A stretch of DNA of 64,000 bases. It comes from a virus. A model generated the notes under the pieces. The model did not search any database and was not told where the DNA came from. It worked only from the letters and a program-made list of their open reading frames with translations. The stretch is from IMG/VR virus record IMGVR_UViG_3300037485_000225, positions 1 through 64,000 of that record; one strand, written 5' to 3'. This document shows, piece after piece, positions 436 to 61,921 of the stretch; the stretch's first letter is position 1; the number at the start of each line of letters is the position of its first letter. Both the position numbers and the translations under genes were made by a program.

Positions 436-1545
436 CTTTTAAACATTTAATTGTGTTACGCATTGACATTTTAAGGGGGGCTACCCCCACTGCGTAATTT
501 GTGGAGGGGTGGCTGACTGGATGTACCCTCCCCTCCCCTATACATAATGAGTTCCCTAATTATAGGAAAAAAAATTTTGTAAATAGTTCCACAAAGAACA
601 TTGGACATAACCTCCTAAGGCTCAAACAGTTAGCTGTAAGAAGTGTTAAATGTTGCATGAAATTTTCCAAATTCTTCATGCACCCATTTTTATACCCACA
701 GTATAAATTGCACCCATAAATTAAACTTTGCCCCTATTTTTTGTAACAAATAACTATATAAATATGTTACAAGAGTGTCACACTTTTTCAAATATTTGTG
801 ACAGATTTATATATATATAGGTAACAAAGACTTCTGGGTTTGGCTGTGTTTCACTTTCTAGATTGTCCAGTTTTTAACACAATAAACTTGACATTTGTCA
901 AGGTATAGCTTTACCCTAGGGGATGTTTAGTCAAGCTATGGCTTTACATAATGTGTCTTATAAGGGACATGCTCAGCTTAACAATGTTGCTTTTATGACA
1001 CATTATGATATGTCTTTACATATAATGATGGAATAAGCTTACATATTATATGCGTTATAATATAGGGACCAATATTATAAACTCCTGTTGTATCAAAACT
1101 AGAAAATCCTGCAAGTTTTGATAATAGGCAAAAATAAATTTGGAACATATAAAGGAGATTGATATCTTTGGGGGGGAAAAAGGGGGGGCCCTTTGTAAAC
1201 CCATTCATTTAAAAACTCTTATATATATGATGACAACAATATTATTACTGTTAGTGCTATTAGTGATTATGGCCATAAGCGTAGGGATCTATATGTCTGA
1301 TGACATAGAAATGGGAATGGAGCTATCAACATTCAAATGGACAAGCTTTGAACTAGGTGTCACTAATAGAAACTATACATGGGATAGTGGGGAAGAGGAA
1401 CAGGAGCTTAGAGTAGGGTTATTTTTCATCACCTTCTTTATATCATTTTTTAGAAATAGTGCATAATATAGCATTCACCCATAGACATAATTAAATTAGT
1501 TATTTGTGGGTCAATAGATTATACATACCTTTGCTTTAATTATAT
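436..1545. promoter_or_regulatory. 1.1-kb noncoding strand-switch region carrying divergent promoters and G/C-rich structured elements
   Basis: No convincing ORF; the table ORFs 501-719, 993-1208 and 1140-1466 are low-complexity. GGGGGG-cta-CCCCC hairpin at 475-488. GGAGGGG (503-509) pairs with CCCCTCC (530-536). G7-A5-G7-CCC at 1170-1191. Bacteroidetes-type -33 TTTG (1503-1506) and -7 TACCTTTG (1526-1533) lie 19 nt apart just upstream of the ATG at 1546. TAAATTTG at 1135-1142. Confidence 0.45.
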
Positions 1546-1902: not shown

Positions 1903-2248
1903 GCCAGTGTCAATGTCTGTTAAAGACTACCTAATCAGGACACTAGCTGTTAAGATTCTTACGTCAGAGAAGACAATAGAAGCTGTCATTAATCACCAGT
2001 TTCAATCAGCCAACGAAGCCCTTGATACAAATAATAGTGTAGAGATTTCTGGATTTGGAAAGCTCTTCTTTAATAATAAGAAGGCTATAAAAAGACTAGG
2101 AGCTCTGAACGCTAAGAGAGAAGTGATGGAAAGGATGATAAATGATGTAACATTACCAGAGCAAAAAAGGAAGTCAGCTCAAGTGACGTTAAACCAGACG
2201 AATACAACAATAGGATTATTAAAAGCTAGAATTACATATGAAGATTAA
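1895..2248 (+). CDS. HU/IHF-like (bacterial histone-like) DNA-binding protein
   Basis: N-terminal helices followed by ...NSVEISGFGKLFF.. closely mirror the HU signature ..V.LVGFGTF.V. The canonical R-x-G-R-N-P arm is not obvious, so this is a divergent member. Confidence 0.5.
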   Translation: MDKPVSMSVKDYLIRTLAVKILTSEKTIEAVINHQFQSANEALDTNNSVEISGFGKLFFNNKKAIKRLGALNAKREVMERMINDVTLPEQKRKSAQVTLNQTNTTIGLLKARITYED

Positions 2249-3062: not shown

Positions 3063-3381
3063 AAAAGCACTTCTTATAGAATATGAGTTGGAGTTTCTAG
3101 AAATGAAACTTCAAGAACTAAAGGAATATATACAGTCTAACCCCTTTTCTTCTTTAGCTGATAGAATGGCTTGGAAGGAAACAAAAGGTGGAGGATCTAT
3201 TCCTATTTGTATTGCTAATAAAGAAGCACAAAGAAAAGACTTGACACAAGCACTTAAAGACTATGCTGAGATTTTACGTACAGTGGATGCTATGAGAGAG
3301 AAAGAAGAGTCTAAAATAGAGGTGAGAGGCAAGGGAGAACTAAGCAGTATGGCTGAAGACTTCCTTAAAAATAGAAAATGA
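3049..3381 (+). CDS. hypothetical protein; by position a candidate small terminase subunit
   Basis: 110-aa charged and coiled ORF immediately upstream of, and overlapping, the large terminase gene. Positional inference only. Confidence 0.35.
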   Translation: MATTKKALLIEYELEFLEMKLQELKEYIQSNPFSSLADRMAWKETKGGGSIPICIANKEAQRKDLTQALKDYAEILRTVDAMREKEESKIEVRGKGELSSMAEDFLKNRK

Positions 3382-5414
3382 ATCTACAGAGTATAGACTA
3401 TAAAGACTGGTTTATAAATCAGAAGCGTATTCCTGACAAAACTAGTGAGGAGTTTAAGGAGTTTTTTGACTTTCATAAAGAGTTATGTCTAAATGGTTGT
3501 ATGATGGGGGGTGTTTATATCAACCCCTTTTTATATTGGCACCTAAACATGTGGCATACAGAGGTGGATGTTATTGATGCAAATGGAAGAATCTCTCAGA
3601 AATATGCTAACCCATTTCTTAGAGATAATGAGTGGGTGATTACCAATGAGATAGATAGAGCTCAGAATGAAAAGAAAGGACTGCTAATACTTGGTATTAG
3701 ACGTTTGGCTAAGTCTGTTATAGAAGCATCCTATGTATCTTGGGGTGCTACATTTGATGAAAACTCACAGAATATTATTTCTGGACTGAATGCTCCAGAT
3801 ATAAAACTGATTACAGATAAGATTGATAAAGGTCTTAACTTCTTACCAGAAGCTTGGAGATGGCAGAGGATTGAAGATAATTGGAAGAATCAAGTGACAC
3901 TAGGAATTAAAACTAGATCAGGAGAAAGGATACCATTCTCTTCTATTCTTATTCGTAACCTTGATGAAGGTAATAATGAAGAGGCAATTGCAGGTACTAA
4001 ACCACGTAAATTAATTATAGATGAGATCGGTAAAGGAAATTTCCTTAGAGGCTTACAGGCTGCTATTCCAGGTTTCACTACACCCTATGGTTGGGGATGT
4101 AGCCCCATACTTACTGGGACTGGTGGTGACATGAAAAAATTCATGGATGCAAAATCCTTGATGTTTGATGTAGACAATTTCAATTTTCTTTCTTATAATA
4201 ATGAGAAGGATACATCTAGAATGCATGGGCTCTTCATTGGACACAAGTATAGAATGGAGGCTAAAGAAGACTCTACACTAGGAGCTTTTTTAAAAGAACC
4301 TCCAGCTTCAGAACTATACAATGTAAAAATGTTAGTCTCTAATGATGAGAAGGCTACAGAAATTACAGAAAATAATCTTAACAGACTTAAAAAAGCTGGA
4401 GATAGAATAGCATATTTAAAAGAGAAGATGTACTATCCACAGGAAGTGGATGATATATTCTTGAATGAGGATACAAACATCTTTGATATTGAATCTGCTA
4501 AGAGACAAAAGTCTAGATTGTTACAGCAAGAACGTACAGGTACACCTGTTGTATTATATGCTGAAGAAACTACAATAAAGCATGAGTTTACAGATAAGCT
4601 TCCCATATCTAACTTCCCTCTCAAGAATAGTGATATGAAGGATGCTCCTGTAGTTATATATGAGTTCCCTATAGAAAATCCTCCTTATGGATTGTATGTA
4701 GCAGGAGTCGATCCCTATAGACAAGGTAAGTCAGCTTATTCAAGTTCATTAGGATCTGTATACATATATAAGAGAATGCATGAAATTACAGGTGAGAAGT
4801 ATCAAGATATGTTCGTAGCTTCGTACTGTGCAAGACCTGATAAGAAAGAAACTTGGGAAGAACAAGCTCGTTTACTTATTAAGTATTACAATGCTAGAAC
4901 ACTGTGTGAGAATGATGACATATCCTTTATTGAATATATGAAAGCTAAAGGAGATGCTCACTATTTAGAGAAACAACCTCAATGGTTGATGGAGATTGTT
5001 CCTAACACAACAGTTAAAAGAGAATATGGAATTCATCGTTCAAGTGAGAAAATAATTAACTACCTTCACACTTCCTTAAAGAAGTATATGGAAGAAACAA
5101 TATACACTGAGAAGGATGCTGATGGTAAGGTGATAAGAGAAGTGCTAGGAGTTCATAAGATATTTGATCCTGTATTGTTAGAAGAGATTATCCAATACAA
5201 TGATCAGGGTAACTTTGATAGAATTGTAGCTGCAGAGTTAGCAATTGCTCAAGCACTTAAGATGGACCCTATTATGGGAAGAATAGGTGGAACAGGAGAT
5301 GAGAGAGTGGCATCTATGTTTGTTAAGAAGAAAGGTAATGTATTATTCACAGAATCAAGAGGAGGGATGTTTGGCAGATCTCCTAGAAAATATAAAAATA
5401 AATTGTTTTCATAA
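3378..5414 (+). CDS. terL: terminase large subunit (ATPase plus nuclease)
   Basis: T4-like deviant Walker A ILGIRRLAKS (compare SRQLGKT) and Walker B LIIDEIG. C-terminal nuclease motif VAGVDPYRQGKSAYSS matches the classical terminase (I/V)G(V/I)DP..G.D.SA motif. Sits just upstream of the portal candidate. Confidence 0.8.
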   Translation: MNLQSIDYKDWFINQKRIPDKTSEEFKEFFDFHKELCLNGCMMGGVYINPFLYWHLNMWHTEVDVIDANGRISQKYANPFLRDNEWVITNEIDRAQNEKKGLLILGIRRLAKSVIEASYVSWGATFDENSQNIISGLNAPDIKLITDKIDKGLNFLPEAWRWQRIEDNWKNQVTLGIKTRSGERIPFSSILIRNLDEGNNEEAIAGTKPRKLIIDEIGKGNFLRGLQAAIPGFTTPYGWGCSPILTGTGGDMKKFMDAKSLMFDVDNFNFLSYNNEKDTSRMHGLFIGHKYRMEAKEDSTLGAFLKEPPASELYNVKMLVSNDEKATEITENNLNRLKKAGDRIAYLKEKMYYPQEVDDIFLNEDTNIFDIESAKRQKSRLLQQERTGTPVVLYAEETTIKHEFTDKLPISNFPLKNSDMKDAPVVIYEFPIENPPYGLYVAGVDPYRQGKSAYSSSLGSVYIYKRMHEITGEKYQDMFVASYCARPDKKETWEEQARLLIKYYNARTLCENDDISFIEYMKAKGDAHYLEKQPQWLMEIVPNTTVKREYGIHRSSEKIINYLHTSLKKYMEETIYTEKDADGKVIREVLGVHKIFDPVLLEEIIQYNDQGNFDRIVAAELAIAQALKMDPIMGRIGGTGDERVASMFVKKKGNVLFTESRGGMFGRSPRKYKNKLFS

Positions 5415-7993
5415 TGGCAATTATAAGATATACAAAAGACGCAACAATTAGGTATGCCTATTTAAACATATTCCCTGATCAGTTTAAAACTGAGAAGGAG
5501 AAGATGGATGAGAGTTGGATTAAAAACACAATGGATTATTTCGCTAATAAGTCATACGCTGAATATATAAAGAATAGAGACACCTTTGTTAAGAACTATG
5601 ATTTAATGAAGGGGATTCTTAGAAGAGAGGATTTTTATCAAGAGCCTGAGGTGAGAAGTTTCACAGATGTATTAACATCTGATCTTGAACTTCCTGCTTA
5701 TGTAAAAATGTATTCTATTATAACAACTCCTGTTAATGAGTTAGTTGGAGAAATTTCTAAAAGACCAGATGCTTTTCGTGTAAAGGCATTTGATGATGAT
5801 AGTAAATCTGAAGAGCTTGAGTTTAAGACAGGTATATTACAAGAGTATGTAATAGGACAAGCTAGACAAAAGATTCAAGAGAAAGCTGCATTACAAGGAC
5901 AAGAGATTGAAGATGAAGAGTTACAACAAATGACAATGAATGAGGTGAAGGATCAAATAGATTCTTACACATCCACTGCAGAGAAATGGGCTAACCATGT
6001 CCTCACTTCTCAAAAGGCTGAGTTTACTCTTAAAGAAAAAAGTGAAGATGCTTTCAGAGATATGTTAATATCTGCTAGAGAGTTCTATCATATATACGAA
6101 GATAATTCAAAGGTTGGATTTAATGTAGAGGTAGCAAATCCTAAAACTACATGGTTCTTAACAACACCAGATAGAAAATATATTTCAGATCCTACAGGTA
6201 GAGCACAAGCTGCATATGCTGCTGGTACTGTACAGGTGATGGAGCTATCTGAAATTATTGAATCAGTTCCTGATTTAACTAAAGATGAAATAGATCACTT
6301 ACGTTCTTCATTACAAGACTATGGATTGATTAATGTACGTGAATCAAATCTTGGTAATCCTAATGCTACTCCTGGTAATGACTCTATTCAATATGATACA
6401 TATGATCCTCTTGTTCTACAAACTAGAATGATCATTGAATCTGAAATGAAAGAGAATAATGATGGTCTTAAAGATTTCTTAGGTCTTACATCTAATGTAA
6501 GTTCTTTTGGTTATAAGTATGTAGTGGTGAGAGCCTATTGGATTAGTAAAAGAAAGATAGGTAAGCTTATCTATTTAGATGAGATGGGTAGTGAACAATC
6601 TCTACTTGTAGATGAGAATTATAAGAGTGGAACTATTCCTACACAACAATCTTTAGAGTGGGGATGGATTAACCAATGGTACCAAGGTATCAAGATTGGT
6701 CCAGACATCTATCATATCAAACCTTATAAGTTACTACCTTACTGTCCTATCATTGGTCAGGTGTTTGAGGTGAAGAATACAGAAGCTAAAAGCTTAGTAG
6801 ACTTAATGAAACCTTTTCAGGTTTTGTATAACGTATGTATGAATCAGCTTTACAAACTTCTTGAGAAGGAAGTGGGTAAGGTGCAATTGATGTCTATTAG
6901 ACATATTCCTATTCCTAAAGATGGAGATGCACAAGATGCTCTTGATATATGGGAAATGGAAGCTCGTAATAGAGGGGTAGTATTTATTGATGATAGTCCA
7001 GAGAATTTAAAAGCTCCTTCTAGCTTCAATCAATTTACTAGTCTAGATCTTACACGTACACAGGAGATACAAGCTCGTTATACATTAGCTCAACAATTAA
7101 AGAATGAGTGTTGGGAATTAATAGGTATGTCTAAACAAAGACTTGGATCTGTATCAGCTAGTGAAAGTGCTACAGGAACCAATGCTGCTATTACACAAAG
7201 TTATTCTCAAACAGAACCTTTATTTGTTGCACATGAATATGTATTAGGTCAGCTTTACCAAGGTATAATTGATGCATCTCTATATGTAGAAAGTGCTAAA
7301 CCACAATCTACAATTTCCTACATTACATCTCAAGGAGAATCTGCTTTTGTACAGGTGAATGGTACAGATCTTAAGTTCAGAGACTTAAAGGTGTATTTAA
7401 CTAATAGACCAGAGGATCAAAAAATGTTCACTGAATTACGCAGTTTATCACAAGCTGTTATACAGAATGGTGGAAGCTTATCTGATATCATTGAATTATA
7501 TTCAACTGATTCTGTTCGTCAAATGAAGAAGGTGTTTACAACACTTAAGGAAAGACAACAGCAATTAGAAGATCAGAAGATGCAACAACAACAGCAACAA
7601 TTAGAGCAACAACAACAACAAGCTCAAGCTACAATTGCTGCAGCTCAACAAGCACAACAAGAAAAAATGGCTCATGATGATTATCAAAATGAGTTGGATA
7701 GAATTAATAAGAAAGAGATTGCATTAATTTCTGCTGAATCTAAAGGAGGATTACCAGATGTAGATAATTCTGGAGCTCCTGATGTATTGGAAATCAATAA
7801 GTTATCATTAGAGCAATCAAAAGCTAGTAGAGACTATCAAACAAAAATGGCTGACATTCAATCTAAAAATACATTAGCTGCTCAAAAGCTACAAGTGGAA
7901 AGAGAAAAACTAAAAGTATCTAGAGAGAATCAAGCAAACGATTTAGCTATAGCTAAAGAGAATGCTAAGGGTAGGAACAAGAAAACTAAATAA
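5414..7993 (+). CDS. portal protein candidate (859 aa) with Q-rich coiled-coil C-terminus
   Basis: Position immediately after terL with an overlapping start. Size fits large portals. The C-terminal poly-Q/coiled-coil (QQQQQLEQQQQQAQ) is seen directly. Confidence 0.5.
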   Translation: MAIIRYTKDATIRYAYLNIFPDQFKTEKEKMDESWIKNTMDYFANKSYAEYIKNRDTFVKNYDLMKGILRREDFYQEPEVRSFTDVLTSDLELPAYVKMYSIITTPVNELVGEISKRPDAFRVKAFDDDSKSEELEFKTGILQEYVIGQARQKIQEKAALQGQEIEDEELQQMTMNEVKDQIDSYTSTAEKWANHVLTSQKAEFTLKEKSEDAFRDMLISAREFYHIYEDNSKVGFNVEVANPKTTWFLTTPDRKYISDPTGRAQAAYAAGTVQVMELSEIIESVPDLTKDEIDHLRSSLQDYGLINVRESNLGNPNATPGNDSIQYDTYDPLVLQTRMIIESEMKENNDGLKDFLGLTSNVSSFGYKYVVVRAYWISKRKIGKLIYLDEMGSEQSLLVDENYKSGTIPTQQSLEWGWINQWYQGIKIGPDIYHIKPYKLLPYCPIIGQVFEVKNTEAKSLVDLMKPFQVLYNVCMNQLYKLLEKEVGKVQLMSIRHIPIPKDGDAQDALDIWEMEARNRGVVFIDDSPENLKAPSSFNQFTSLDLTRTQEIQARYTLAQQLKNECWELIGMSKQRLGSVSASESATGTNAAITQSYSQTEPLFVAHEYVLGQLYQGIIDASLYVESAKPQSTISYITSQGESAFVQVNGTDLKFRDLKVYLTNRPEDQKMFTELRSLSQAVIQNGGSLSDIIELYSTDSVRQMKKVFTTLKERQQQLEDQKMQQQQQQLEQQQQQAQATIAAAQQAQQEKMAHDDYQNELDRINKKEIALISAESKGGLPDVDNSGAPDVLEINKLSLEQSKASRDYQTKMADIQSKNTLAAQKLQVEREKLKVSRENQANDLAIAKENAKGRNKKTK

Positions 7994-7995
7994 AT

Positions 7996-8526
7996 ATGTT
8001 TGATAAACTAATTGATGTATTGATTGAATGGTGGAATCATGTTCTACCATTCATTATTATCAGAGATTATGAACAAGCTGTACTTCTTAGATTTGGAAGA
8101 TTTAATCAAGTGTTACTGCCAGGTATACACTTTAAGATTCCTTTCTTTGATGAGGTGATAGATCAGCATGTGGTAGTCACAACACTCAGTCTTGATGCTC
8201 AATCTCTATATACTAAAGATAAGCAAAACATTGTTGTAAAAGGACTTGTTAAATATAAGATAGCTGATGTAAAGACTTTCTTATTAGAGGTTTATGATGC
8301 TCAGGATGCTTTATCAGATATGTCTCAAAGTATTATAAAAAATATTATTATGTCTATGACTTTAGAAGAGTGTACAGATTCTGAACTTGATAACACACTT
8401 ACAAAGAAAGTTAGGGTGGAAGCACGGAAGTGGGGGGTTGAAGTTCAACAAGTTACCCTTACAGATCTTGCCCCAATTAGAAGTTATAGGCTTATAAATG
8501 ACAACTTTATCAATAAACTTGATTAG
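7996..8526 (+). CDS. SPFH / band-7 (stomatin-prohibitin-HflK/C-like) domain protein
   Basis: N-terminal hydrophobic segment, then YEQAVLLRFGRF..LLPGIHFKIPFFDEV..VVVTTLSLDAQSLYTKDKQNIVVKGLVKYKI.D, which matches the SPFH core E.A..FRLGR...GpG....P..d......r....d.p.q...TKDnv.v.vd.vv.yrv. Confidence 0.75.
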   Translation: MFDKLIDVLIEWWNHVLPFIIIRDYEQAVLLRFGRFNQVLLPGIHFKIPFFDEVIDQHVVVTTLSLDAQSLYTKDKQNIVVKGLVKYKIADVKTFLLEVYDAQDALSDMSQSIIKNIIMSMTLEECTDSELDNTLTKKVRVEARKWGVEVQQVTLTDLAPIRSYRLINDNFINKLD

Positions 8527-8622
8527 AGTAAAAAAAGTTAATGCTATATTATCTTAAATAATGAGGCTATAACCTACATCTCTCTTTGCTATTAATTTTA
8601 ATTAATATACTTTTACATCTCA

Positions 8623-8650
8623 AAACCAATTAAAACTCAACTACATATGG
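8623..8650 (+). promoter_or_regulatory. conserved upstream element AAACCAATTAAAACTCAACTACATATGG (copy 1)
   Basis: Near-identical to 11651-11677. Sits immediately 5' of the start codon of the scaffold-like gene. Confidence 0.45.
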
Positions 8651-9909
8651 CTGAAAATCTAGATAGTCAACCCTTTGGGAACTTCAGTATCCAGGATACC
8701 ATGGAAATGGGTATGGGTAATGCTGAATTACTAAATGACTTAATGGGCCCTGATAGTGCTACTTCTAATCCTGATGATATTCAAGATATAGATAATGCAC
8801 CTGCCCCTGAAAAGAAAACAACACAAGCACCTGCTAAACCAGCTGCTTCAACTACTAGCACAGAAGAAACTCCTCCTATTGATGAAAAGAAATCTCTTGA
8901 AGACTTCTTGATGGATGATGATAAAGAAGAGGGAGAAGAGGTTGATGATCAACCACTTAAGAAAACTTCTGGAACAAAAGAGACCCCTGCTACAACAGAA
9001 GAGGGTGAAGAAGAAGGAGAAGCTGAAACAAATCAGTTTACTGCTCTTTCTAAAGATCTTTTTAAACTAGGAGTCTTTTCTAAAGAAGAAGAAGAAGAAG
9101 ATGTTCCAATAAACAATGCTGAAGAATTTTTAGAAAGATTCAATGCAGAGAAAAAGAAAGGGGCTGTTGAAGTGGTAAATAACTTCATTGGTCAATTTGG
9201 AGAAGAATATCAACAAGCATTTGATGCCATATTTGTAAAGGGAGTTAATCCTAAAGATTACTTTGGTGCATTTAACCAAATACAATCTTTCGCTGATATG
9301 GATCTTGCACAGGAAACTAATCAAGTGGCAGTTATTACACAAGCATTAACTGACCAAGGCCTTGATCCTGAGGATGTTACAACAGAGGTAGAAAGACTAA
9401 AGAATTATGGTGATCTTGAAAGCGTTGCTGGAAAACATCATAAGGTGCTAATAAAGAAAGAAGCTGCAAAGCTTCAACAAATGGAACAACAAAGAGAGGT
9501 TCAACTACAACAACAAGCTCAATACAAGCAACAATATGCTGCAAATGTAAACCAAGTTTTACAGGACAAGCTAAAAGCTAAAGAGTTTGATGGTATCCCT
9601 CTTAATCCAAAACTAGCTGGTGAACTACAAGATTTCTTAATAACAGATAAGTATAAAACAAATTCTGGTGAGACTCTCACAGACTTTGATAAAACTATCT
9701 TAGAACTTAAGCGTCCTGAGAATCATGAAAGGAAAGTAAAGGTGGCTCTATTATTAAAAATACTAGAAAAAGATCCTACATTATCTACGATTCAAAAGAC
9801 TGGTTTAACCAAAAAGTCAAATGAATTGTTTGGTGAGGTGGCCAGACAGGCAAGCAAAAGTGCTGTGAAATCTAGTAAACCTGCTCCATCCACTTCATGG
9901 TTTCAATAA
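8647..9909 (+). CDS. acidic scaffolding-like protein
   Basis: Highly acidic (EEEEEE, DDDKEEGEE) with an N-terminal disordered region and a Q-rich coiled coil. Located between the portal/SPFH genes and the capsid candidate. Confidence 0.45.
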   Translation: MAENLDSQPFGNFSIQDTMEMGMGNAELLNDLMGPDSATSNPDDIQDIDNAPAPEKKTTQAPAKPAASTTSTEETPPIDEKKSLEDFLMDDDKEEGEEVDDQPLKKTSGTKETPATTEEGEEEGEAETNQFTALSKDLFKLGVFSKEEEEEDVPINNAEEFLERFNAEKKKGAVEVVNNFIGQFGEEYQQAFDAIFVKGVNPKDYFGAFNQIQSFADMDLAQETNQVAVITQALTDQGLDPEDVTTEVERLKNYGDLESVAGKHHKVLIKKEAAKLQQMEQQREVQLQQQAQYKQQYAANVNQVLQDKLKAKEFDGIPLNPKLAGELQDFLITDKYKTNSGETLTDFDKTILELKRPENHERKVKVALLLKILEKDPTLSTIQKTGLTKKSNELFGEVARQASKSAVKSSKPAPSTSWFQ

Positions 9910-9940
9910 TTTATAAATAAACATTTAAAAAAATAACAAA

Positions 9941-11494
9941 ATGGCAATTCAAACAATTCCAGGTTTAACTGGTTTTACCTATGCTAGAGTCGCTTCTATG
10001 GATAAGCGTGCTGTAGGTAAATTAACAGATGCTAACCACTTGGAAAGCTTTCACTCTACAGAGCCAGCAGATTATGATAAAAAGATCATAAGCCTGTATA
10101 CCCAAAGCTCTCTTTACAGTAATGATTTCTTAGACATGATTAACAAGTCTACTCCTTACTATATCGATAATAACAGTGATGCTTGGAAGTGGCAGGTACA
10201 AGTTCCTTACAAATTTCCTAAAATCATTGACATCCCTGTAACAACTTTAGAGTTGGACAAACCAGGTATTGATGGTCAAGAGTTTCAATTGATTATTGAC
10301 ACAAACGAATTCTCTAAGAATGCAATCGTTTCTGTTGGTACTCGTCAATATGGACCTCGTTTCTACGTTGTGAAAGATCCTCAACCTTGGAACATGGGAT
10401 ATTTATACACATTTACATTAGTAACTGATAATCCAGTTGTAGACTTTGTAAGCCCTACCTTCTTAAGAATAGGTATTGAGCTTGAATTAGTTGATGCTGC
10501 TATTGGTGAATTTGACCAAGACTTATTAGGTCTTCCTCGTTTAGGTGAGCAAATTACAATGTTTGAATCTTTAGGTTCTGCATATGGTTATGAGCACAAG
10601 ATCACTGAGTGGGCTGATGATAAGATGATGAGAGATGCTTCTGGTAAGCCTTTAGATATTTTGGTTTATGCTCCTCAAAGACGTAACCAATTACCTTTAA
10701 CTCGTAATGATGTTAAATGGGAACCATTTATTGAGTTCTGGATGCGTAAGTCTATGTTAGAATTAAAAGTTAAGCGTATGATCTGGGCTAAACCAGGTAC
10801 CGTTAAAACTAATGGTTCTAAGCAAGAATTAAAAAGAACTTCTGCTGGTGTTTACCACAGAATGAGAAATAACGGTAACTTAGTTCAATACAACCGTGGA
10901 GAATTCACTGCAAACTTGATTCGTTCTGTGTTTGGTGATTTGTTCTACAGACGTGTGGATGTTAAGGATCGTAGAGTTAAAATGTACACTAATGAAGCTG
11001 GATTCGATGTATTCCAACAAGCTTTGAAGAATGACGCTTTAAATTCTGGTTTAACTTTCATGGCTGATTCTGGTAATCGTTACATGCAAGGAGAAGGACA
11101 ACATATCACTTACAACTTTGCATTTGATGCAATGGTTACTCGTGAGACTGGTCGTGTTGAACTTATTCACTTGAAAGAATTAGACTTACCTCAAACTAAC
11201 TTAGAATTTGGACAAAACAAGAAATCAACTCCAGTATTTATGGTGTTTGATGTATCTCCAATGTCTGATGGTTCTATGGTTAACAACATTCGTGAGGTTC
11301 GTATGAAAGGTGCTCCTTCTATGACTTGGGGTTATATCGATGGTACTCGTAGTCACTTAGGCTTTGCTAAGTCTCAAGGTATGAGTTCTGCGAACAAATT
11401 CCCTGGTTATGAGATCTGGATGAAAGATCGTTGTGATGTGTTTATTGAAGATTTGTCTCGTACAGTCTTGATTGAGGAAATACCACAATTCTAA
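9941..11494 (+). CDS. major capsid protein candidate (517 aa)
   Basis: Canonical position after the scaffold gene. A-rich leader. Followed by a cluster of stem-loops. No motif-level proof. Confidence 0.45.
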   Translation: MAIQTIPGLTGFTYARVASMDKRAVGKLTDANHLESFHSTEPADYDKKIISLYTQSSLYSNDFLDMINKSTPYYIDNNSDAWKWQVQVPYKFPKIIDIPVTTLELDKPGIDGQEFQLIIDTNEFSKNAIVSVGTRQYGPRFYVVKDPQPWNMGYLYTFTLVTDNPVVDFVSPTFLRIGIELELVDAAIGEFDQDLLGLPRLGEQITMFESLGSAYGYEHKITEWADDKMMRDASGKPLDILVYAPQRRNQLPLTRNDVKWEPFIEFWMRKSMLELKVKRMIWAKPGTVKTNGSKQELKRTSAGVYHRMRNNGNLVQYNRGEFTANLIRSVFGDLFYRRVDVKDRRVKMYTNEAGFDVFQQALKNDALNSGLTFMADSGNRYMQGEGQHITYNFAFDAMVTRETGRVELIHLKELDLPQTNLEFGQNKKSTPVFMVFDVSPMSDGSMVNNIREVRMKGAPSMTWGYIDGTRSHLGFAKSQGMSSANKFPGYEIWMKDRCDVFIEDLSRTVLIEEIPQF

Positions 11495-11510
11495 GAAATA
11501 TAGAACAAAG

Positions 11511-11638
11511 GTTAGAACTAATGTTCTAAACAGTTCGAGAAGAATTCCCCCCCACTCCTCAAAAGTGGGGGAGTCTTCTCACCAACCCCAGATGGATGAA
11601 TGAAATTAAAACTTTCATTGCATTCCTTTCAATAGGAA
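11511..11638 (+). terminator. cluster of four consecutive stem-loops downstream of the capsid candidate
   Basis: TTAGAAC-taat-GTTCTAA (11512-11529). CCCCCACT-cctcaaa-AGTGGGGG (11549-11571). AATGAAA-ttaaaac-TTTCATT (11599-11619). TTCCT-ttcaat-AGGAA (11623-11638). None has a strong U-tract. Confidence 0.4.
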
Positions 11639-11650
11639 CCATCTGCAAAT

Positions 11651-11677
11651 AAACCAAATAAAAACAACTACATATGG
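11651..11677 (+). promoter_or_regulatory. conserved upstream element AAACCAAATAAAAACAACTACATATGG (copy 2)
   Basis: Matches copy 1 at 8623-8650 in 25 of 27 positions. A partial third copy AAACCAAATATAAAATG lies at 21356-21372 upstream of 21370. Confidence 0.45.
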
Positions 11678-12642
11678 GTAAGATAGGCAAAATCTCCACT
11701 TTAAAAAAGGAGTACAATAACTCTCTATTGCAAACAATGCAAGGAGGGCTTGCAACAAAAGGCTTAACAAGAATTCCTGGTACAGGTGTATTTAAGTATC
11801 CTTATAAAGAACTTGATGGTCAGTACAGAACAGGATTAGATCCTAATGCTGCGTACATCAGAAGAATTGGTGATAAGTTAGAAAGAGATTTAGAAATCGA
11901 AAGAGTAACTGAATTGAAAGCTAAACTTGAAGCTGCTTTAGGTGATATTAACTTAGGTCCTCGTTCTAGTTTCTGGAACTATGGATTATCAACTTCTACA
12001 GATGATACATTACATGTACAAGCTGTTAAATTGATGGATGGTGATAACTTCTATGATTTTAGTAATCCTTCACAAGAGTTAGCTTTTGCATGGTTAAGAG
12101 TTCATCCAACAATCGCATCAAGCTATGGAGCTTGGGAGCGTGGTGAATTTCCAGCAGATACACAATTCTATGTTGCAGATGATGAAATTGAAAGTGCAAT
12201 TATATTCAAGAAGAAACAATTAATCAATAAAGCTATTGCTAAGTTTGATGGTATGTCTCCTGAGAAGAAAAGAAAAGTTGCAAGATTATTAGGCCTACCT
12301 ATTTCAGAAGATACTAAAGAAGATGTTGTATATAATCAAGTAGATAATATTCTTAAGCAAACAGAGTTTAAGAATGGTAAATTCCAAGGATTATCAACAG
12401 TTGAAGTGTTCAATAGATTTGCTGACATGAAGGAAAACTTACTCCATATTAAAGACTTAGTAAAACAAGCCATTACACATTCTATTTATAGAATCAAACC
12501 TAATGGTAAAATATATGAAGGTGAATTTGAAATAGCTTCTGATGAAGATGATTTAGTCAAATTCCTTGTAGACGAAGATAATCAAGACCAACTATTAACA
12601 TTAGAAGGTAAATTGAAAACTAAAAAATTAGCATCTGTATGA
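11674..12642 (+). CDS. hypothetical virion structural protein (322 aa)
   Basis: ORF in the head-tail morphogenesis block, preceded by the conserved upstream element. Confidence 0.5.
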   Translation: MGKIGKISTLKKEYNNSLLQTMQGGLATKGLTRIPGTGVFKYPYKELDGQYRTGLDPNAAYIRRIGDKLERDLEIERVTELKAKLEAALGDINLGPRSSFWNYGLSTSTDDTLHVQAVKLMDGDNFYDFSNPSQELAFAWLRVHPTIASSYGAWERGEFPADTQFYVADDEIESAIIFKKKQLINKAIAKFDGMSPEKKRKVARLLGLPISEDTKEDVVYNQVDNILKQTEFKNGKFQGLSTVEVFNRFADMKENLLHIKDLVKQAITHSIYRIKPNGKIYEGEFEIASDEDDLVKFLVDEDNQDQLLTLEGKLKTKKLASV

Positions 12643-21346: not shown

Positions 21347-21369
21347 ATACATAAAAAACCAAATATAAA

Positions 21370-21894
21370 ATGACAGTAACAATAACATTAACAACAGCAG
21401 GATCTGACACAGGTCCCTTTGATCTTTATTCAGATGTAGATGGATTTACAACCCCATTTTTAACAGGAGTGGCTAAAAGTGTATTAGTGGCAGGGCTTAC
21501 TACATCACTGGTTCCTAATGACACTGTAGAGATATTAGTACAATCTACAGGAACTTGTGAAAGAGATCTTTATTTAACAGTTGAGGGAGCACCAACTACT
21601 ACCACAACAACAACTAGTTCTACAACAACAAGTACAACAAGTACAACAACAACACCATATCCAGGTATATATTATTATTACAATATTCAAAGATATGATT
21701 GTACACAAGATTGTGCAGAAGGAACAACTGCTATAGGAAGAGCTACAAATGCATTAGACCTTGATTATTTCTATCATCCACCTTTAAGCACTGACGTCTA
21801 TAAGATATTAAGTGCTACAACAGGAGATTATTATAATGTTGATCTATATGGTTCACCAAGTAGAGCAACATGCTCTGAGGCTTGTAGTGCATAA
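21370..21894 (+). CDS. small protein with a TGPFD N-domain (paralogous to the N-terminus of 30577), a poly-Thr linker and a Cys-containing C-domain
   Basis: N-terminus TVTITLTTAGSDTGPFDLYSDVDG...VEILVQSTGTCERDLYL compares with VVIRLTCAGNRTGPFDISDNLDN...IIIESVGKCNTRIDV in the 30577 ORF. Linker TTTTTTTSSTTTSTTSTTTT. Confidence 0.5.
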   Translation: MTVTITLTTAGSDTGPFDLYSDVDGFTTPFLTGVAKSVLVAGLTTSLVPNDTVEILVQSTGTCERDLYLTVEGAPTTTTTTTSSTTTSTTSTTTTPYPGIYYYYNIQRYDCTQDCAEGTTAIGRATNALDLDYFYHPPLSTDVYKILSATTGDYYNVDLYGSPSRATCSEACSA

Positions 21895-21965: not shown

Positions 21966-22074
21966 AAACTCTAACTAGATTGATTAATCTATATAATCAA
22001 ATTAGTTAATTAAATTTGGTGAATATCAAAAATATTCCCTATCTTTACACTAATTTTAACTAAATTTAACTTAT

Positions 22075-23325
22075 ATGTCTGAAAACCAATCTCTTTTAGA
22101 ACAGCTTGAGCAAATGTTGCATTGGAAAAAATCAAAAACATACTATGCTGCAAAGCTAGGAGTTACAGAGTCTGAGGTTGATGACTTGCTTGTAGATTTA
22201 AGAAATCGAGAAAAGGTTGAAGATGATGCAGAGATTGGAAACTATATATCTGAGTTAGAGAATACAGTGGTTAAGTTCACTGAAGATATGGTAAAGGGTA
22301 CAGGAGAGATTGTAGTTAATGTTAAAGAAGAAATTAGAAGTCTAGAGGATCTTATAGAGAAGTGTAAAATAGACACAACAAAGTGGGATATAACTAAATA
22401 TGTACAGAATTTCTGGGGTAATGAAGATAATCCTCGATGGCAAGTAAAAGCCTGGTTAGGAAAAAAGTCTACAGAGCAAGTCTTCCAAGACTATTTTGTA
22501 GACTTTTTAGCTTCATATGAGCCTGTAAGTCAAACAGTTATGGGTCCTAAGTTTGTTCCAAGTAAGTCACATGCATGCTTAGTTATTAACAAACAAGACT
22601 CACATTTGAATAAGTTTGATGTAGATGGGAATAATGATATAGAAGATAGATTTGCTAGAATGATGTTTAAAACAGAGACTATTATAACTCAAGCTCAACT
22701 ATCTAACAATCTAGACCACATTGTTTATATCATTGGTTCTGATGAGTTTAATAGTGAACATACCAATAACACTACAAAAGGAACTCCTCAACAGAATATA
22801 CATACATATCATGAGGGATTCCTTAAGATATGTAACCATGAGATTCTTGTAATTACAATGTTATTACAATATGCTACAAATGTTAGTGTAGTGTATGTAG
22901 CAGGTAATCATGATGAATATGTAGGTTGGCATATGGTTAATTGGTTACAAACCTATTTTAGAAAAGAAGAAAGAGCTGATTTCAACATCAGCCCTAAATA
23001 TAGAAAATACATAGGATATGGTAATTCAGCATTGATGTTCAACCATGGAGATGCTATTAAGCCTGCAAAGCTTGCTGGTATATTCCCAATGGAGTTTAAG
23101 GACAATTGGTCTAGTTATGATAACTTCTATATATTCACAGGAGATAAACACCATGAGGTGAGTCACGATTTTAATGGTATTAAATTTTACCAAATTCCAG
23201 CATTCTCTAATGCTAAAAGTCTTTGGGATGATAAGAATGGTCACGTAATGTCTAAAGCAGAAGTGACAGCATTCTTGATAGATGAGAATGATGGAATGAC
23301 AAATATATTCAAACAGTATTTATAA
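22075..23325 (+). CDS. putative calcineurin-like metallophosphoesterase family protein
   Basis: VVYVAGNHDEY (GNHD, metallophosphatase motif III) with downstream FNHGD and GDKHH His-containing motifs. Motifs I and II are degenerate, so the call is tentative. Confidence 0.4.
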   Translation: MSENQSLLEQLEQMLHWKKSKTYYAAKLGVTESEVDDLLVDLRNREKVEDDAEIGNYISELENTVVKFTEDMVKGTGEIVVNVKEEIRSLEDLIEKCKIDTTKWDITKYVQNFWGNEDNPRWQVKAWLGKKSTEQVFQDYFVDFLASYEPVSQTVMGPKFVPSKSHACLVINKQDSHLNKFDVDGNNDIEDRFARMMFKTETIITQAQLSNNLDHIVYIIGSDEFNSEHTNNTTKGTPQQNIHTYHEGFLKICNHEILVITMLLQYATNVSVVYVAGNHDEYVGWHMVNWLQTYFRKEERADFNISPKYRKYIGYGNSALMFNHGDAIKPAKLAGIFPMEFKDNWSSYDNFYIFTGDKHHEVSHDFNGIKFYQIPAFSNAKSLWDDKNGHVMSKAEVTAFLIDENDGMTNIFKQYL

Positions 23326-37015: not shown

Positions 37016-37101
37016 CTAACTCAGTTATACCAGATTAACGAAAGTCGTTATTTGTCTTGGTATATAAAATAATTTAAATTACATTTGCTAATTCTAAAAC
37101 T

Positions 37102-57910: not shown

Positions 57911-57977
57911 AAGCTCACATGTATTGCTATATTATGTAGGAATACTTTTTCCAATACATTGAAAATAAATTAAATTA

Positions 57978-58030
57978 CCTATTTTTGCTATAATTAGTGC
58001 AGAATGTATAATATTCTTGCACTAATTTGT
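57978..58030 (+). promoter_or_regulatory. promoter-like region with an operator-like palindrome upstream of the collagen-like fibre gene
   Basis: TATTTTTG at 57980-57987 and TAATTTG at 58023-58029 both fit the -7 TAnnTTTG element. Imperfect palindrome GTGCAGAAT-gtataata-TTCTTGCAC at 57998-58022 encloses TATAAT. Confidence 0.4.
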
Positions 58031-61000: not shown

Positions 61001-61921
61001 ATACAAGACAGAAGTAATTCAGCTAATTACCAAATATGGACAATTAGCGCTACTCCTACTTATGTCCCTACAACTTATTGGACTATACCTGTTACATTGG
61101 TATCTTCAGCAGGAACGGGAACAACAGGGTTTGCTAATAACCATCCAATATTTGTAGCTACATCTGCTTTTAGTGGAACGAGTGGAACAACGGGTACTTC
61201 TGGTACAAGTGGCACTGGAACTAGTGGTACATCTGGTACAACTGGAACTTCTGGAACTACAGGTACAAGTGGTACATCAGGTACTTCAGCTACAGATGGA
61301 ACTAGTGGTACAACTGGTACTAGCGGTACATCAGGCACTAGTGGTACAAGTGGAACATCAGCAACTGATGGAACAAGTGGTACTTCTGGCACCACAGGAA
61401 CTTCTGGAACAAGTGGAACATCTGGTTCAAGTGGTACAGCAGGTACAACAGGTACTTCAGGTACAAGTGGAACTGATGGCACAAGTGGAACAGCTGGTAC
61501 ATCTGGAACCTCAGGATCTAGTGGTACAACTGGAACAAGTGGAACAGCTGGAACAGCTGGTACAGCAGGTACAAGTGGTACATCTTGTGGATTATGTGGA
61601 ACAAGTGGAAATACAATTACTATTCCTTCTACTCCTGCTACAACTACTACAACTACAACAGCTGGTCCTGTGGTATATACAATTGATTCATTTGGAACAG
61701 GTAGTGCCTTTGATGCTTGTACTACTGGAAGTCCAACAATCACTGTATATGCATTACCAGGTTATACAACACCTATTGTTGGCATGATTCTTTATGATAG
61801 TTCAAGTTTAACAACTCCTTATATTGGTGGAGCAGGTTGGAGAAAATTAATACAAGGTGCTACAAGTTATGCAGCAGAAGTAGATATTAATGGAGAAATT
61901 ACAAACTATTCAGCTTGTTAA
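58064..61921 (+). CDS. collagen-like tail fibre (1285 aa) with two interruption domains, a second globular domain and a Cys-containing C-terminal domain
   Basis: N-terminus (C..C...C.FYEG...YTG.D.ND.LQ.ALQKID.A) is homologous to the N-termini of 15586 and 16770. Long G-T-S/G-x-y runs. Interruption domains at 58661-58920 and 60125-60384. Non-collagen segment 60800-61190. C-terminal SCGLCG...poly-T...Cys domain. Confidence 0.8.

What the first reader, a model, noticed from the sequence alone, without database searches (positions are those of the whole stretch)
8623..8650. 28-nt conserved element abutting start codons, a candidate phage-specific promoter or translation element
AAACCAATTAAAACTCAACTACATATGG (8623-8650) and AAACCAAATAAAAACAACTACATATGG (11651-11677) are nearly identical. 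Both run directly into the ATG of structural genes. A partial third copy, AAACCAAATATAAAATG, lies at 21356-21372. They do not contain the host-type TAnnTTTG element. A phage that encodes its own RNAP would be expected to carry distinct middle or late promoter motifs, and leaderless or very short-leader mRNAs would explain why the motif abuts the start codon.
Basis: seen in the sequence. Interest (0 to 1): 0.6.

Follow-up and report, generated by a model that had tools for sequence, protein, structure and literature searches.

The report
Shared mRNA leader before phage genes
The repeated 28-base element is real and strongly conserved, but it is most likely the short untranslated leader and start-codon context of phage messenger RNAs (a translation signal for ribosomes that ignore Shine-Dalgarno sequences), not a promoter for the phage's own RNA polymerase.

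Summary
AAACCAA-N(8-9)-AACTACAT-ATGG occurs twice in the window (8623-8650, 11651-11677), against 0.00 expected by chance. Both copies sit at the same two gene starts in about 50 distinct related uncultivated crAss-like phages.

The element has two boxes: AAACCAA about 22 nt before the ATG, and AACTACAT abutting it. The A/T-rich linker between them varies in sequence and length.

Evidence for an RNA-level leader:
- **Site A:** it lies just downstream of a conserved host-type Bacteroidota promoter (TTTG-N19-TACTTTTA). The predicted start is at 8620-8621, so the motif is essentially the whole 26-27-nt leader.
- **Site B:** no promoter is visible. The motif follows a covarying hairpin and a Y-shaped RNA within the read-through transcript from the capsid gene. 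In some relatives a tRNA-Met gene or an HNH endonuclease gene is inserted there.
- **Other genes:** in relatives the motif also precedes a 338-aa gene, 6-25 nt after the stop codons of unrelated upstream genes.
- **Properties:** it is G-free and predicted unpaired.

The translation-element or short-leader reading is supported. The phage-polymerase promoter reading is not. What reads the invariant AACUACAU box is unknown. This is a lineage-specific variant of a known kind, of moderate interest.

The parts
8623..8650 (+). Site A copy of the leader motif: AAACCAA (distal box), TTAAAACTC (variable linker), AACTACAT (proximal box), then ATGG. The ATG at 8647 starts the 420-aa gene upstream of the capsid gene.
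   Evidence: Present in all 46 distinct site-A upstream sequences from relatives. Predicted fully unpaired.
11651..11677 (+). Site B copy of the leader motif: AAACCAA, ATAAAAAC, AACTACAT, ATGG. The ATG at 11674 starts the 322-aa gene downstream of the capsid gene.
   Evidence: Proximal box and ATGG conserved in 33 non-redundant relatives: 11 of 12 columns invariant, the second C at least 90%. Predicted unpaired.
8585..8615 (+). Host-type (Bacteroidota sigma-A-like) promoter for site A: -33 TTTG (8585-8588), 19-nt spacer, -7 box TACTTTTA (8608-8615, matching TAnnTTTG with A for the final G).
   Evidence: Pattern scan. Both boxes conserved across 46 relatives. Geometry taken from PMC6847099 and PMC9723704.
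8620..8621 (+). Predicted transcription start for site A, 4-5 nt after the -7 box. This gives a 26-27-nt leader that is essentially the motif. This step is inferred, not measured.
   Evidence: The rule that the -7 box occupies -12 to -5, with the start 4-5 nt downstream, comes from F. johnsoniae and F. psychrophilum data, applied.
8539..8552 (+). Upstream conserved box TAATGCTATATTAT, 32 nt before the -33 TTTG of site A. Candidate regulator-binding site. Function unknown.
   Evidence: The whole box is marked at least 95% conserved across 46 relatives. Two further copies with one mismatch lie at 57922-57935 (+) and 1463-1476 (-), each next to another host-type promoter.
11537..11580 (+). Long G+C-rich hairpin after the capsid gene stop codon (GAGAAGAATTCCCCCCCAC...GTGGGGGAGTCTTCTC). 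It has no U-tract on the + strand.
   Evidence: compensatory changes GAGAAGA/TCTTCTC to CAGAAGAC/GTCTTCTA and others. Not a canonical terminator on the + strand.
11589..11645 (+). Y-shaped (three-way junction) RNA. P1 is CAGATGG/CCATCTG (7 bp). P2 is a long variable hairpin. P3 is a 4-5-bp stem with conserved loop TTCRNT. It is followed by CAAAT and then the motif.
   Evidence: RNAalifold. Pair counts: 89-92% of cells paired against 30-44% when the partner is slid, and 17-18 of 21 pairs show compensatory changes. Covariance-model hit at 11587-11650 scores 67.6 bits; it is the only copy in the window and occurs once per relative. No Rfam family and no tRNA call.
21356..21372 (+). Partial copy: distal box only (AAACCAAATATAAA + ATG of the 174-aa gene at 21370).
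   Evidence: In relatives AACCAA recurs in the 0-20 nt before this gene's ATG, at variable distance; AACTACAT is absent. AACCAA lies within 35 nt upstream of 4 of 34 window gene starts, against 0.66 expected.
22015..22077 (+). Second example of a promoter plus short leader. TTTG-N21-TATCTTTA is followed by ACTAATTTTAACTAAATTTAACTTAT-ATG of the 416-aa exonuclease gene. The leader is a degenerate relative of the motif (AACTAA / AACTTAT).
   Evidence: Promoter and AATTTTAACYAAA are conserved in 80 relatives. A subset carries AACCAA and ACTACAT (for example L081, L285).
2230..2240 (+). Degenerate proximal box AATTACAT + ATG at the start of the 99-aa gene (2238), embedded in the 3' end of the upstream ORF.
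   Evidence: Orthologues in L117 and L194 carry AACTACATATG; L117 also carries AAACCAA twice.
8647..12642 (+). The served genes and their neighbour: 420-aa gene (8647-9909), major capsid protein (9941-11494, phrog_11589) and 322-aa gene (11674-12642).
   Evidence: The same gene order occurs in Crassvirales phage cr118_1.

Best explanation
The element is a shared 5' leader and translation-initiation region of phage mRNAs. It acts at the RNA level, in a host whose ribosomes do not use Shine-Dalgarno pairing (Bacteroidota).

Site A. Host RNA polymerase starts at a conserved host-type promoter (TTTG-N19-TACTTTTA), about 26-27 nt before the ATG. The motif is therefore the whole leader. The promoter and its geometry are shown; the start site is inferred.

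Site B. The same leader lies inside the transcript that reads through from the capsid gene. It comes just after a stable hairpin and a Y-shaped RNA. In some relatives a tRNA-Met gene sits between the Y element and the leader, so RNA processing probably creates a new 5' end a few bases upstream of AAACCAA. That mimics the arrangement at site A. The structures and tRNA are shown; the cleavage is inferred.

Proposed action (inferred). The G-free, unpaired leader offers the 30S subunit an open landing site. The distal AAACCAA box, about 22 nt upstream, would act as a standby or bS1-type contact. The invariant AACUACAU box at positions -8 to -1 would fix the start codon. Because the Cs at -3 and -6 are invariant yet depart from the host's adenine-rich optimum, some sequence-specific reader is likely. 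It could be a ribosomal component or a phage-encoded RNA-binding factor, and it is not identified.
For: 1. The bipartite pattern occurs twice in the window against 0.00 expected. It is kept at both orthologous positions in relatives fetched by capsid-protein similarity alone.
2. In the proximal box plus ATGG, 11 of 12 columns are invariant across 33 non-redundant sequences and the twelfth is at least 90% conserved. Only 17% of four-fold sites in the capsid gene are invariant. The motif persists where the adjacent proteins are only 53-73% identical.
3. At site A the motif starts 7 nt after a conserved -33/-7 host-type promoter. The geometry known for Flavobacterium puts the start at 8620-8621.
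4. Site B has no such promoter. It is preceded by RNA structure with many compensatory and G:U changes on the sense strand. In L107, L127 and L177 a tRNA-Met gene precedes it. This DNA is therefore transcribed from upstream.
5. In relatives the motif precedes a 338-aa gene, 6-25 nt after the stop codons of non-homologous upstream ORFs, with no conserved promoter.
6. HNH endonuclease genes inserted at site B start directly after AACTACATATGG. The motif is regenerated in front of the displaced 322-aa gene, partly inside the HNH coding sequence.
7. 279 of 302 ACTACATATG occurrences in the fetched loci begin an ORF of at least 60 aa (the sample is ascertainment-biased).
8. The motif contains no G and is predicted fully unpaired. 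It has A at -12 and -13, as favoured in Bacteroidia. No window gene has a Shine-Dalgarno sequence.
9. In phi14:2 the late genes depend on the host RNAP.
Against: There are no expression data. The transcription start, any RNA cleavage and any effect on translation are all inferred.

The most highly expressed gene, the capsid gene, does not carry the motif. It is therefore not simply the strongest ribosome-binding site.

The proximal box has C, not the favoured A, at -3 and -6.

The distal box has a preferred distance, with a mode of 22 nt. A DNA-level bipartite site could also produce that.

Loci L081-L200 were fetched with the motif itself, so counts from them are partly circular.
Confidence: 0.62

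Rival explanations
1. Promoter for a phage-encoded RNA polymerase. AACTACAT, with or without AAACCAA, would be recognised on DNA by the phage two-barrel RNAP or by a phage-modified host RNAP. Transcription would start at or next to the A of ATG, giving leaderless or near-leaderless late mRNAs.
For: The phage encodes a giant protein with the DFDxD catalytic motif (DFDID at residue 3398 of the 4387-aa ORF). The motif is tied to gene starts and is specific to this phage lineage rather than shared with bacterial genes. The crAss001 paper speculates that newly made RNAP subunits might take part in late transcription.
Against: - Site A and the exonuclease gene have complete, conserved host-type promoters placed to start about 26-30 nt upstream of the ATG, which would make a second promoter redundant.
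- Site B is preceded by sense-strand RNA structure and tRNA genes that must be transcribed from upstream.
- Box spacing varies (AACCAA start 16-29 nt before the ATG), the distal box is deleted in L001, L003 and L075, and 3-5 extra A residues are tolerated between AACTACAT and the ATG after HNH insertion.
- In phi14:2 the virion RNAP transcribes early genes, which have no common motif, and late genes are rifampicin-sensitive.
- Leaderless mRNAs are rare in flavobacteria, about 5.5%.
Confidence: 0.1
2. Operator for a phage-encoded post-transcriptional regulator. The shared leader would mark a small regulon: the 420-aa, 322-aa, 338-aa and 98-aa genes and the inserted HNH genes. Their translation or stability would be switched together by an RNA-binding protein or small RNA, as T4 RegA binds several translation-initiation regions (own knowledge). 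This is a special case of the RNA-level reading.
For: - The Cs at -3 and -6 are invariant and non-optimal, which argues for a sequence-specific reader rather than generic A-richness.
- The motif marks only a handful of genes per genome, while most genes use AAATAA-type contexts.
- The capsid gene lacks it.
- It is absent from bacterial gene starts.
Against: No candidate regulator was identified. No complementary sequence stood out: the two + strand occurrences of ATGTAGTT, at 28475-28482 and 39686-39693, lie inside or at the end of coding regions. The motif is unstructured, whereas many known translational operators are hairpins (own knowledge).
Confidence: 0.17
3. DNA-level site unrelated to expression, for example the recognition or homing site of the HNH endonucleases found inserted at site B, or a binding site for a DNA-binding protein at the CATATG palindrome.
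For: HNH endonuclease genes are inserted exactly at the motif in L001-L003, L127 and L177. The proximal box contains the palindrome CATATG. Homing endonucleases typically target conserved sequence (own knowledge).
Against: Most genomes have the motif and no HNH gene. The motif occurs at several unrelated genes, always on the coding strand and always abutting the ATG. A DNA site would not require that.
Confidence: 0.05
4. Chance resemblance of two A-rich, low-complexity start regions.
For: Each 7-mer alone is common in the window (AAACCAA 19 times and AACTACA 27 times on both strands). Single-box searches with mismatches are near chance.
Against: The combined pattern has an expectation of 0.00. 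It is conserved at orthologous sites in dozens of diverged genomes, well beyond neutral sites.
Confidence: 0.01

Closest known systems
Shine-Dalgarno-independent translation-initiation regions of Bacteroidia (Baez et al. 2019, PMC6847099; Jha et al. 2020, PMC7797042)
   Same: No SD sequence, an unstructured leader, adenines at -12 and -13, a short leader of about 25-30 nt downstream of a TAnnTTTG-type -7 promoter, and AUG not repeated near the start.
   Different: The host rule is a loose adenine preference at -3, -6, -12 and -13. Here an 8-nt sequence, AACUACAU, is invariant and has C at -3 and -6. A second box, AAACCAA, sits about 22 nt upstream. The motif marks only a few phage genes and is not found at bacterial gene starts.
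Phage translational enhancers and shared translational operators, such as the T7 gene 10 leader and the T4 RegA target sites (own knowledge, not tested here)
   Same: Short, A/U-rich, unstructured sequences next to start codons of several phage genes. They act on the mRNA and are portable between genes.
   Different: Those systems work together with an SD sequence in E. coli. No SD is present here, no regulator is known, and the direction of any effect (activation or repression) is unknown.
Middle/late promoters of crAss-like phage phi14:2, read by host RNAP (Drobysheva et al., bioRxiv 10.1101/2020.03.07.982082)
   Same: Late genes of a crAss-like phage are served by host-polymerase promoters rather than by the virion RNAP. 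Site A and the exonuclease gene in this window also have host-type promoters.
   Different: The phi14:2 motif is described as tripartite, with -35/-10-like blocks that E. coli sigma-70 holoenzyme can use. Here the promoter is of the Bacteroidota -33/-7 type. The 28-nt element lies downstream of it and is not part of it.
tRNA punctuation and tRNA-like processing signals in polycistronic RNAs, cut by RNase P or RNase Z (own knowledge; relevant to the Y-shaped RNA at site B)
   Same: A 7-bp closing stem abuts a 4-5-bp stem with a UUCR-containing loop, with few or no unpaired nucleotides between them. This resembles an acceptor/T-arm stack. The element sits between two cistrons, and genuine tRNA-Met genes occupy the same spot in relatives.
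   Different: ARAGORN does not call it a tRNA, and the Rfam tRNA model does not match it even at E up to 10. The loop has 6 nt and lacks the conserved A58 equivalent. There is no D arm, no anticodon and no CCA. Cleavage is untested.

Membership tests
Bacteroidota sigma-A promoter (-33 TTTG / -7 TAnnTTTG) | A TAnnTTTG-like box 4-5 nt upstream of the start site, with TTTG or TTG about 19-21 nt further upstream | tested here: not met
   Neither box lies within the 28-nt element at either site. A matching pair (TTTG-N19-TACTTTTA) lies immediately upstream of site A only, so the element is downstream of a promoter and is not itself one.
Phage-RNAP-specific promoter (T7-, N4- or phiKZ-like) | A rigid conserved block at a fixed distance from the start site, with room for a start site upstream of the start codon | tested here: not met
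   The AACCAA start lies 16-29 nt before the ATG. The distal box is deleted in 3 relatives. The proximal box abuts the ATG directly, yet 3-5 extra A residues are tolerated after HNH insertion.
Phage-RNAP-specific promoter (T7-, N4- or phiKZ-like) | Transcription by the phage polymerase from the element | not testable with these tools
   This needs in vitro transcription or 5'-end mapping. In phi14:2 the late genes depend on the host RNAP.
Shine-Dalgarno ribosome-binding site | A purine-rich GGAGG-like stretch 5-10 nt upstream of the start, complementary to the 16S 3' end | tested here: not met
   The motif contains no G upstream of the ATG. No window gene shows an SD sequence.
Bacteroidia Kozak-like start context | Unstructured initiation region with A at -12 and -13 | tested here: met
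   Both leaders are predicted unpaired. Both have A at -12 and -13, read directly.
Bacteroidia Kozak-like start context | A at -3 and -6 | tested here: not met
   Both positions are C in AACTACAT-ATG. C at -6 is invariant and C at -3 is at least 90% conserved in relatives.
Leaderless mRNA | Transcript 5' end at or within a few nt of the AUG | tested here: inconclusive
   The promoter geometry at site A predicts a 26-27-nt leader. No 5'-end data are available.
Rfam cis-regulatory RNA families | A match to any curated covariance model | tested here: not met
   No match at gathering score in the whole window. Only chance-level hits with E of at least 1.4 in 11400-11750.
tRNA or tRNA-like structure (for the Y-shaped RNA next to site B) | Cloverleaf or acceptor/T-arm mimic recognised by tRNA models | tested here: not met
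   ARAGORN finds no tRNA in the window. Rfam tRNA models do not match at E up to 10. Only the stacking geometry and the UUCR loop resemble a tRNA.
Intrinsic terminator (for the hairpin after the capsid gene) | A G+C-rich hairpin followed by a U-tract on the transcribed strand | tested here: not met
   The hairpin at 11537-11580 is followed by ACCAACCCC. The scan lists no + strand terminator there.

The most novel reading that the evidence does not exclude
The AACUACAU box, with AAACCAA about 22 nt upstream, could be a sequence-specific, Shine-Dalgarno-independent ribosome-recruitment or start-selection signal. It would be used by a phage lineage that infects SD-blind Bacteroidota and read by an as yet unknown partner, either a ribosomal site or a phage-encoded factor. 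At site B it would be coupled to a new Y-shaped, tRNA-like RNA that punctuates the late polycistronic transcript, so that the leader sits at a fresh 5' end.
Probability: 0.2. Interest if true: 0.7.

Novelty: new variant of a known kind. Interest (0 to 1): 0.4.

Why it matters
How Bacteroidota ribosomes choose start codons without Shine-Dalgarno pairing is only partly understood. Known determinants are loose adenine preferences and lack of structure.

This phage lineage keeps an invariant 8-nt sequence against the start codon of a few genes, with non-optimal cytosines at -3 and -6. That gives a sharp, testable case of sequence-specific start-site recognition in such a host. It is also a ready-made portable leader for expression work in Bacteroidota.

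The result also corrects an attractive but unsupported inference that a phage with its own polymerase must use it for structural genes. Here the structural-gene promoter looks host-type, as in phi14:2.

The adjacent covarying Y-shaped RNA, the tRNA-Met insertions and the HNH insertions make the capsid-gene downstream region a natural system for studying RNA processing in crAss-like phages.

Tried and rejected
- **DNA similarity to isolated phages:** none. By protein, the capsid gene only reaches Leptolyngbya phage Lbo-JY46 (26%) and Flavobacterium FpV phages (21%). Comparison therefore relied on uncultivated contigs.
- **Rfam:** nothing at gathering score in the window, and nothing meaningful by E-value around site B.
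- **tRNA search in the window:** none.
- **Sigma-70-type promoter scan of 7900-12000:** no + strand site near either copy, and total counts were below the shuffled mean.
- **Solved-structure, Pfam and PHROG searches of the 420-aa and 322-aa proteins:** no informative match. The 322-aa protein weakly matches a gene annotated 'RecA' next to the capsid gene in Crassvirales. Their structural role is inferred from position only.
- **Is the motif a host-type translation signal?** A scan of 185,579 species genomes gave 61 hits. Three were the phage itself in MAG bins. The rest were not at gene starts, and 13 of them were one conserved Flavobacteriaceae sequence, which makes up nearly half of the roughly 28 Bacteroidota records among the 61 hits. 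Rejected.
- **A second copy of the Y-shaped RNA near site A or elsewhere:** none. The next best hit scored 12.6 bits.
- **A complementary partner for AACTACAT in the window:** only two + strand ATGTAGTT occurrences, both in coding context. Not pursued.
- **Is the third copy at 21356 a full site?** No. Only AACCAA recurs there in relatives.
- **Crassvirales cr118_1:** same gene order, but no shared leader or Y element.

Full report
**What the window is**

The 64-kb window carries a one-directional block of phage genes:
- terminase large subunit (3378-5414, phrog_6681)
- portal (5414-7993, phrog_6547)
- major capsid protein (9941-11494, phrog_11589)
- tail proteins
- a 4387-aa ORF (39753-52916) with a DFDID motif at residue 3398

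The gene order around the capsid gene matches Crassvirales phage cr118_1. No gene has a Shine-Dalgarno sequence; start codons are preceded by A-rich runs such as AAATAA. Several intergenic gaps contain the Bacteroidota promoter pattern TTTG-N17-23-TAnnTTT[G/A].

This is therefore a distant, uncultivated crAss-like phage of a Bacteroidota-type host. Contigs of the same phage group were binned with two Sediminibacterium MAGs and one Kapaibacterium MAG, which is only a weak host hint.

**Checking the observation**

They match at 25 of 28 aligned columns. Each half alone is close to chance when mismatches are allowed. The exact bipartite pattern AAACCAAN{4,16}ACTACATATG, however, occurs twice against 0.00 expected. 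The third copy at 21356-21372 has only the AAACCAA part.

**Conservation**

Eighty IMG/VR contigs were fetched by capsid-protein similarity alone, so the motif played no part in choosing them. The element is found at both orthologous positions in essentially all loci that reach them.

It resolves into three parts:
- a distal box, AAACCAA
- an A/T-rich linker that varies in sequence and length
- a proximal box, AACTACAT, abutting ATGG

In 33 non-redundant site-B sequences, 11 of the 12 columns of AACTACATATGG are invariant and the second C is at least 90% conserved. In the same genomes only 17% of four-fold degenerate sites of the capsid gene are invariant, and the longest invariant run in that gene is 11 nt.

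The motif persists in lineages where the 420-aa protein is only 53-60% identical and the 322-aa protein 66-73% identical. The start of AACCAA lies mostly 21-24 nt before the ATG (mode 22, range 16-29). The distal box is missing at site B in L001, L003 and L075, while the proximal box stays.

**Site A context**

Alignment of 46 distinct upstream regions shows conserved blocks in this order:
- TAATGCTATATTAT
- CTCTTTG
- TATACTTTTAC
- AAACCAA
- AACTACATATGG

TTTG (8585-8588) and TACTTTTA (8608-8615) are 19 nt apart. That is the Bacteroidota -33/-7 arrangement, with A in place of the final G. In Flavobacterium the -7 box occupies -12 to -5, the start lies 4-5 nt after it, and leaders average 24-33 nt. 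The start site is an inference.

The exonuclease gene at 22075 shows the same architecture. It has TTTG-N21-TATCTTTA followed by a short leader, with AATTTTAACYAAA conserved in 80 relatives. AACCAA and ACTACAT are present only in a subset of them.

**Site B context**

No host-type promoter is present between the capsid stop codon and 11674, and no sigma-70-type site either.

Instead the 179-nt gap holds two RNA structures. The first is a long G+C-rich hairpin (11537-11580). The second is a Y-shaped three-way junction (11589-11645). Both have abundant compensatory changes and many G:U pairs on the sense strand, so they are selected as RNA in the + orientation.

For the Y element:
- 89-92% of cells are paired, against 30-44% when partners are slid.
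- 17-18 of 21 pairs show double changes.
- No shuffle reaches the observed covariation.

A covariance model finds exactly one copy in the window, at 67.6 bits with the next hit at 12.6. It finds one per relative, always at this position. The element matches no Rfam family and is not called a tRNA.

In L107, L127 and L177 a tRNA-Met (CAT) gene lies between the Y element and the motif, ending 3-9 nt before AAACCAA. ARAGORN confirms it for L177; for L107 and L127 it was read from the sequence and fold. Transcription therefore enters site B from upstream. Where a tRNA is present, the transcript must be cut just before the leader. Whether the Y element itself directs a cut is unknown.

**Other contexts in relatives**

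A scan of IMG/VR with the motif pattern found it in front of further genes of the same clade.

- **A 338-aa gene (phrog_4417), absent from the window.** The motif begins 6-25 nt after the stop codons of different, non-homologous upstream ORFs. There is no conserved promoter and little room for one.
- **A 98-aa gene.** Its window orthologue at 2238 has the degenerate AATTACATATG, embedded in the upstream ORF.
- **HNH endonuclease genes of 102-148 aa (phrog_2255) inserted at site B.** These start right after AACTACATATGG. Their 3' ends run through a regenerated AAACCAA...AACTACATAA(A)n-ATGG in front of the displaced 322-aa gene.

Of 302 ACTACATATG occurrences in the fetched loci, 279 begin an ORF of at least 60 aa. 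Part of that sample was fetched with the motif, so the figure is biased upward.

A scan of one genome per bacterial and archaeal species found no use of the motif at bacterial gene starts. It is a property of the phage lineage, not a host signal.

**Interpretation**

The element behaves as a portable piece of mRNA tied to the start codon:
- It appears after a promoter, after RNA structures or a tRNA, after stop codons of unrelated genes, and even inside an upstream coding sequence.
- It is always on the coding strand.
- It is G-free and predicted unpaired.
- It has A at -12 and -13, as favoured in Bacteroidia.

The best-supported reading is a shared leader and translation-initiation module. 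It is not the generic host context, because the invariant Cs at -3 and -6 go against the A preference. The capsid gene, presumably the most expressed, lacks it. A sequence-specific reader is therefore likely but unidentified. A phage-encoded translational regulator acting on a small regulon is a live sub-hypothesis.

**Why the promoter reading is not favoured**

- Site A already has a complete, conserved host-type promoter.
- Site B and the 338-aa gene have no room for a promoter and no conservation of one.
- Box spacing varies, and the distal box is dispensable.
- A -10-like box abutting the ATG would place the start inside the coding sequence unless the mRNA were leaderless, which is rare in flavobacteria.
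- In phi14:2, early genes transcribed by the virion RNAP share no motif, and middle and late genes need the host RNAP.

The crAss001 authors only speculate about a late role for phage RNAP subunits. The promoter reading cannot be excluded without 5'-end mapping.

**Novelty and score**

No Rfam family or paper found here describes the element. It is a lineage-specific variant of a known kind of feature, a conserved non-SD leader, and is of moderate interest. The adjacent Y-shaped RNA is probably the more novel object, but it lies outside the finding as written.

Noticed in passing
window 11589-11645 (covariance-model hit 11587-11650): A Y-shaped three-way-junction RNA lies between the capsid gene and the 322-aa gene. 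Covariation is strong and no Rfam family matches. There is one copy per genome, always at this spot. The closing stem plus a UUCR-loop arm resemble an acceptor/T-arm stack. It is a candidate processing or stability signal.
   Followed up: yes
window 11537-11580: A long G+C-rich hairpin sits right after the capsid gene stop codon. It covaries in relatives but has no U-tract. It may be a 3'-end stabiliser for the capsid mRNA rather than a canonical terminator.
   Followed up: partly
L107 about 2300-2380; L127 and L177 (tRNA at L177 7234-7308): In some relatives a tRNA-Met (CAT) gene sits between the Y element and the leader motif. The L127 copy has a C1 x A72 mismatch, and the L107 copy has a 1:72 mismatch plus GGG/CCC in the anticodon stem. 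Both are initiator-like features, read by eye.
   Followed up: partly
L001 5734-6072, L002 5723-6031, L003 5719-6057, L127, L177: HNH homing-endonuclease genes (phrog_2255) are inserted exactly at site B. They take over the AACTACATATGG start, and their 3' ends overlap a regenerated copy of the motif in front of the displaced 322-aa gene.
   Followed up: yes
window 8539-8552 (+), 57922-57935 (+), 1463-1476 (-): A 14-nt box, TAATGCTATATTAT, occurs three times with at most one mismatch. Each copy lies 23-32 nt from the -33 element of a host-type promoter, in either orientation. At site A the whole box is at least 95% conserved across 46 relatives. The TAAT-N5-ATTA arms suggest a dimeric regulator site.
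   Followed up: partly
window 1503-1533, 37080-37087, 57980-57987 versus 8608-8615, 22040-22047: There are two classes of -7 box. TAnnTTTG precedes the genes at 1546, 37102 and 58064. TAnnTTTA(C) precedes the 420-aa gene and the exonuclease gene. These may correspond to different temporal classes.
   Followed up: no
window 436-1545: A 1.1-kb region without convincing genes lies between a leftward gene (37-435) and the rightward gene block. It contains G-runs (gggggggaaaaagggggggccc at about 1170-1192) and many short repeats. It could be a regulatory, origin or terminus region.
   Followed up: no
window 16770-19466 and 58064-61921 (also 61948-63660): Long collagen-like coding repeats with 9-nt periodicity (GGT ACT TCT-type Gly-X-Y) occur in putative fibre genes. 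They dominate the repeat finder output.
   Followed up: no
window 39753-52916: A single 4387-aa ORF carries the DFDID motif at residue 3398.
   Followed up: no
L203 (JBBAJS010000010.1, 111,986 bp), L217 (JBBAJX010000014.1), L253: Contigs of this phage group are binned in two Sediminibacterium MAGs and one Kapaibacterium MAG. This is a weak hint that the host is a freshwater Chitinophagaceae bacterium.
   Followed up: partly
L201, L206, L210, L212, L227, L229, L231, L240, L242, L246, L250, L251, L259: A conserved sequence, ...AACATTCTGTCTAAACCAATAGARGTTTCAACTACATATGG, recurs in these 13 MAGs and genomes, mostly Flavobacteriaceae, and not at a gene start. It matches the motif pattern by coincidence and makes up nearly half of the roughly 28 Bacteroidota records among the 61 hits. 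Its identity was not determined.
   Followed up: no
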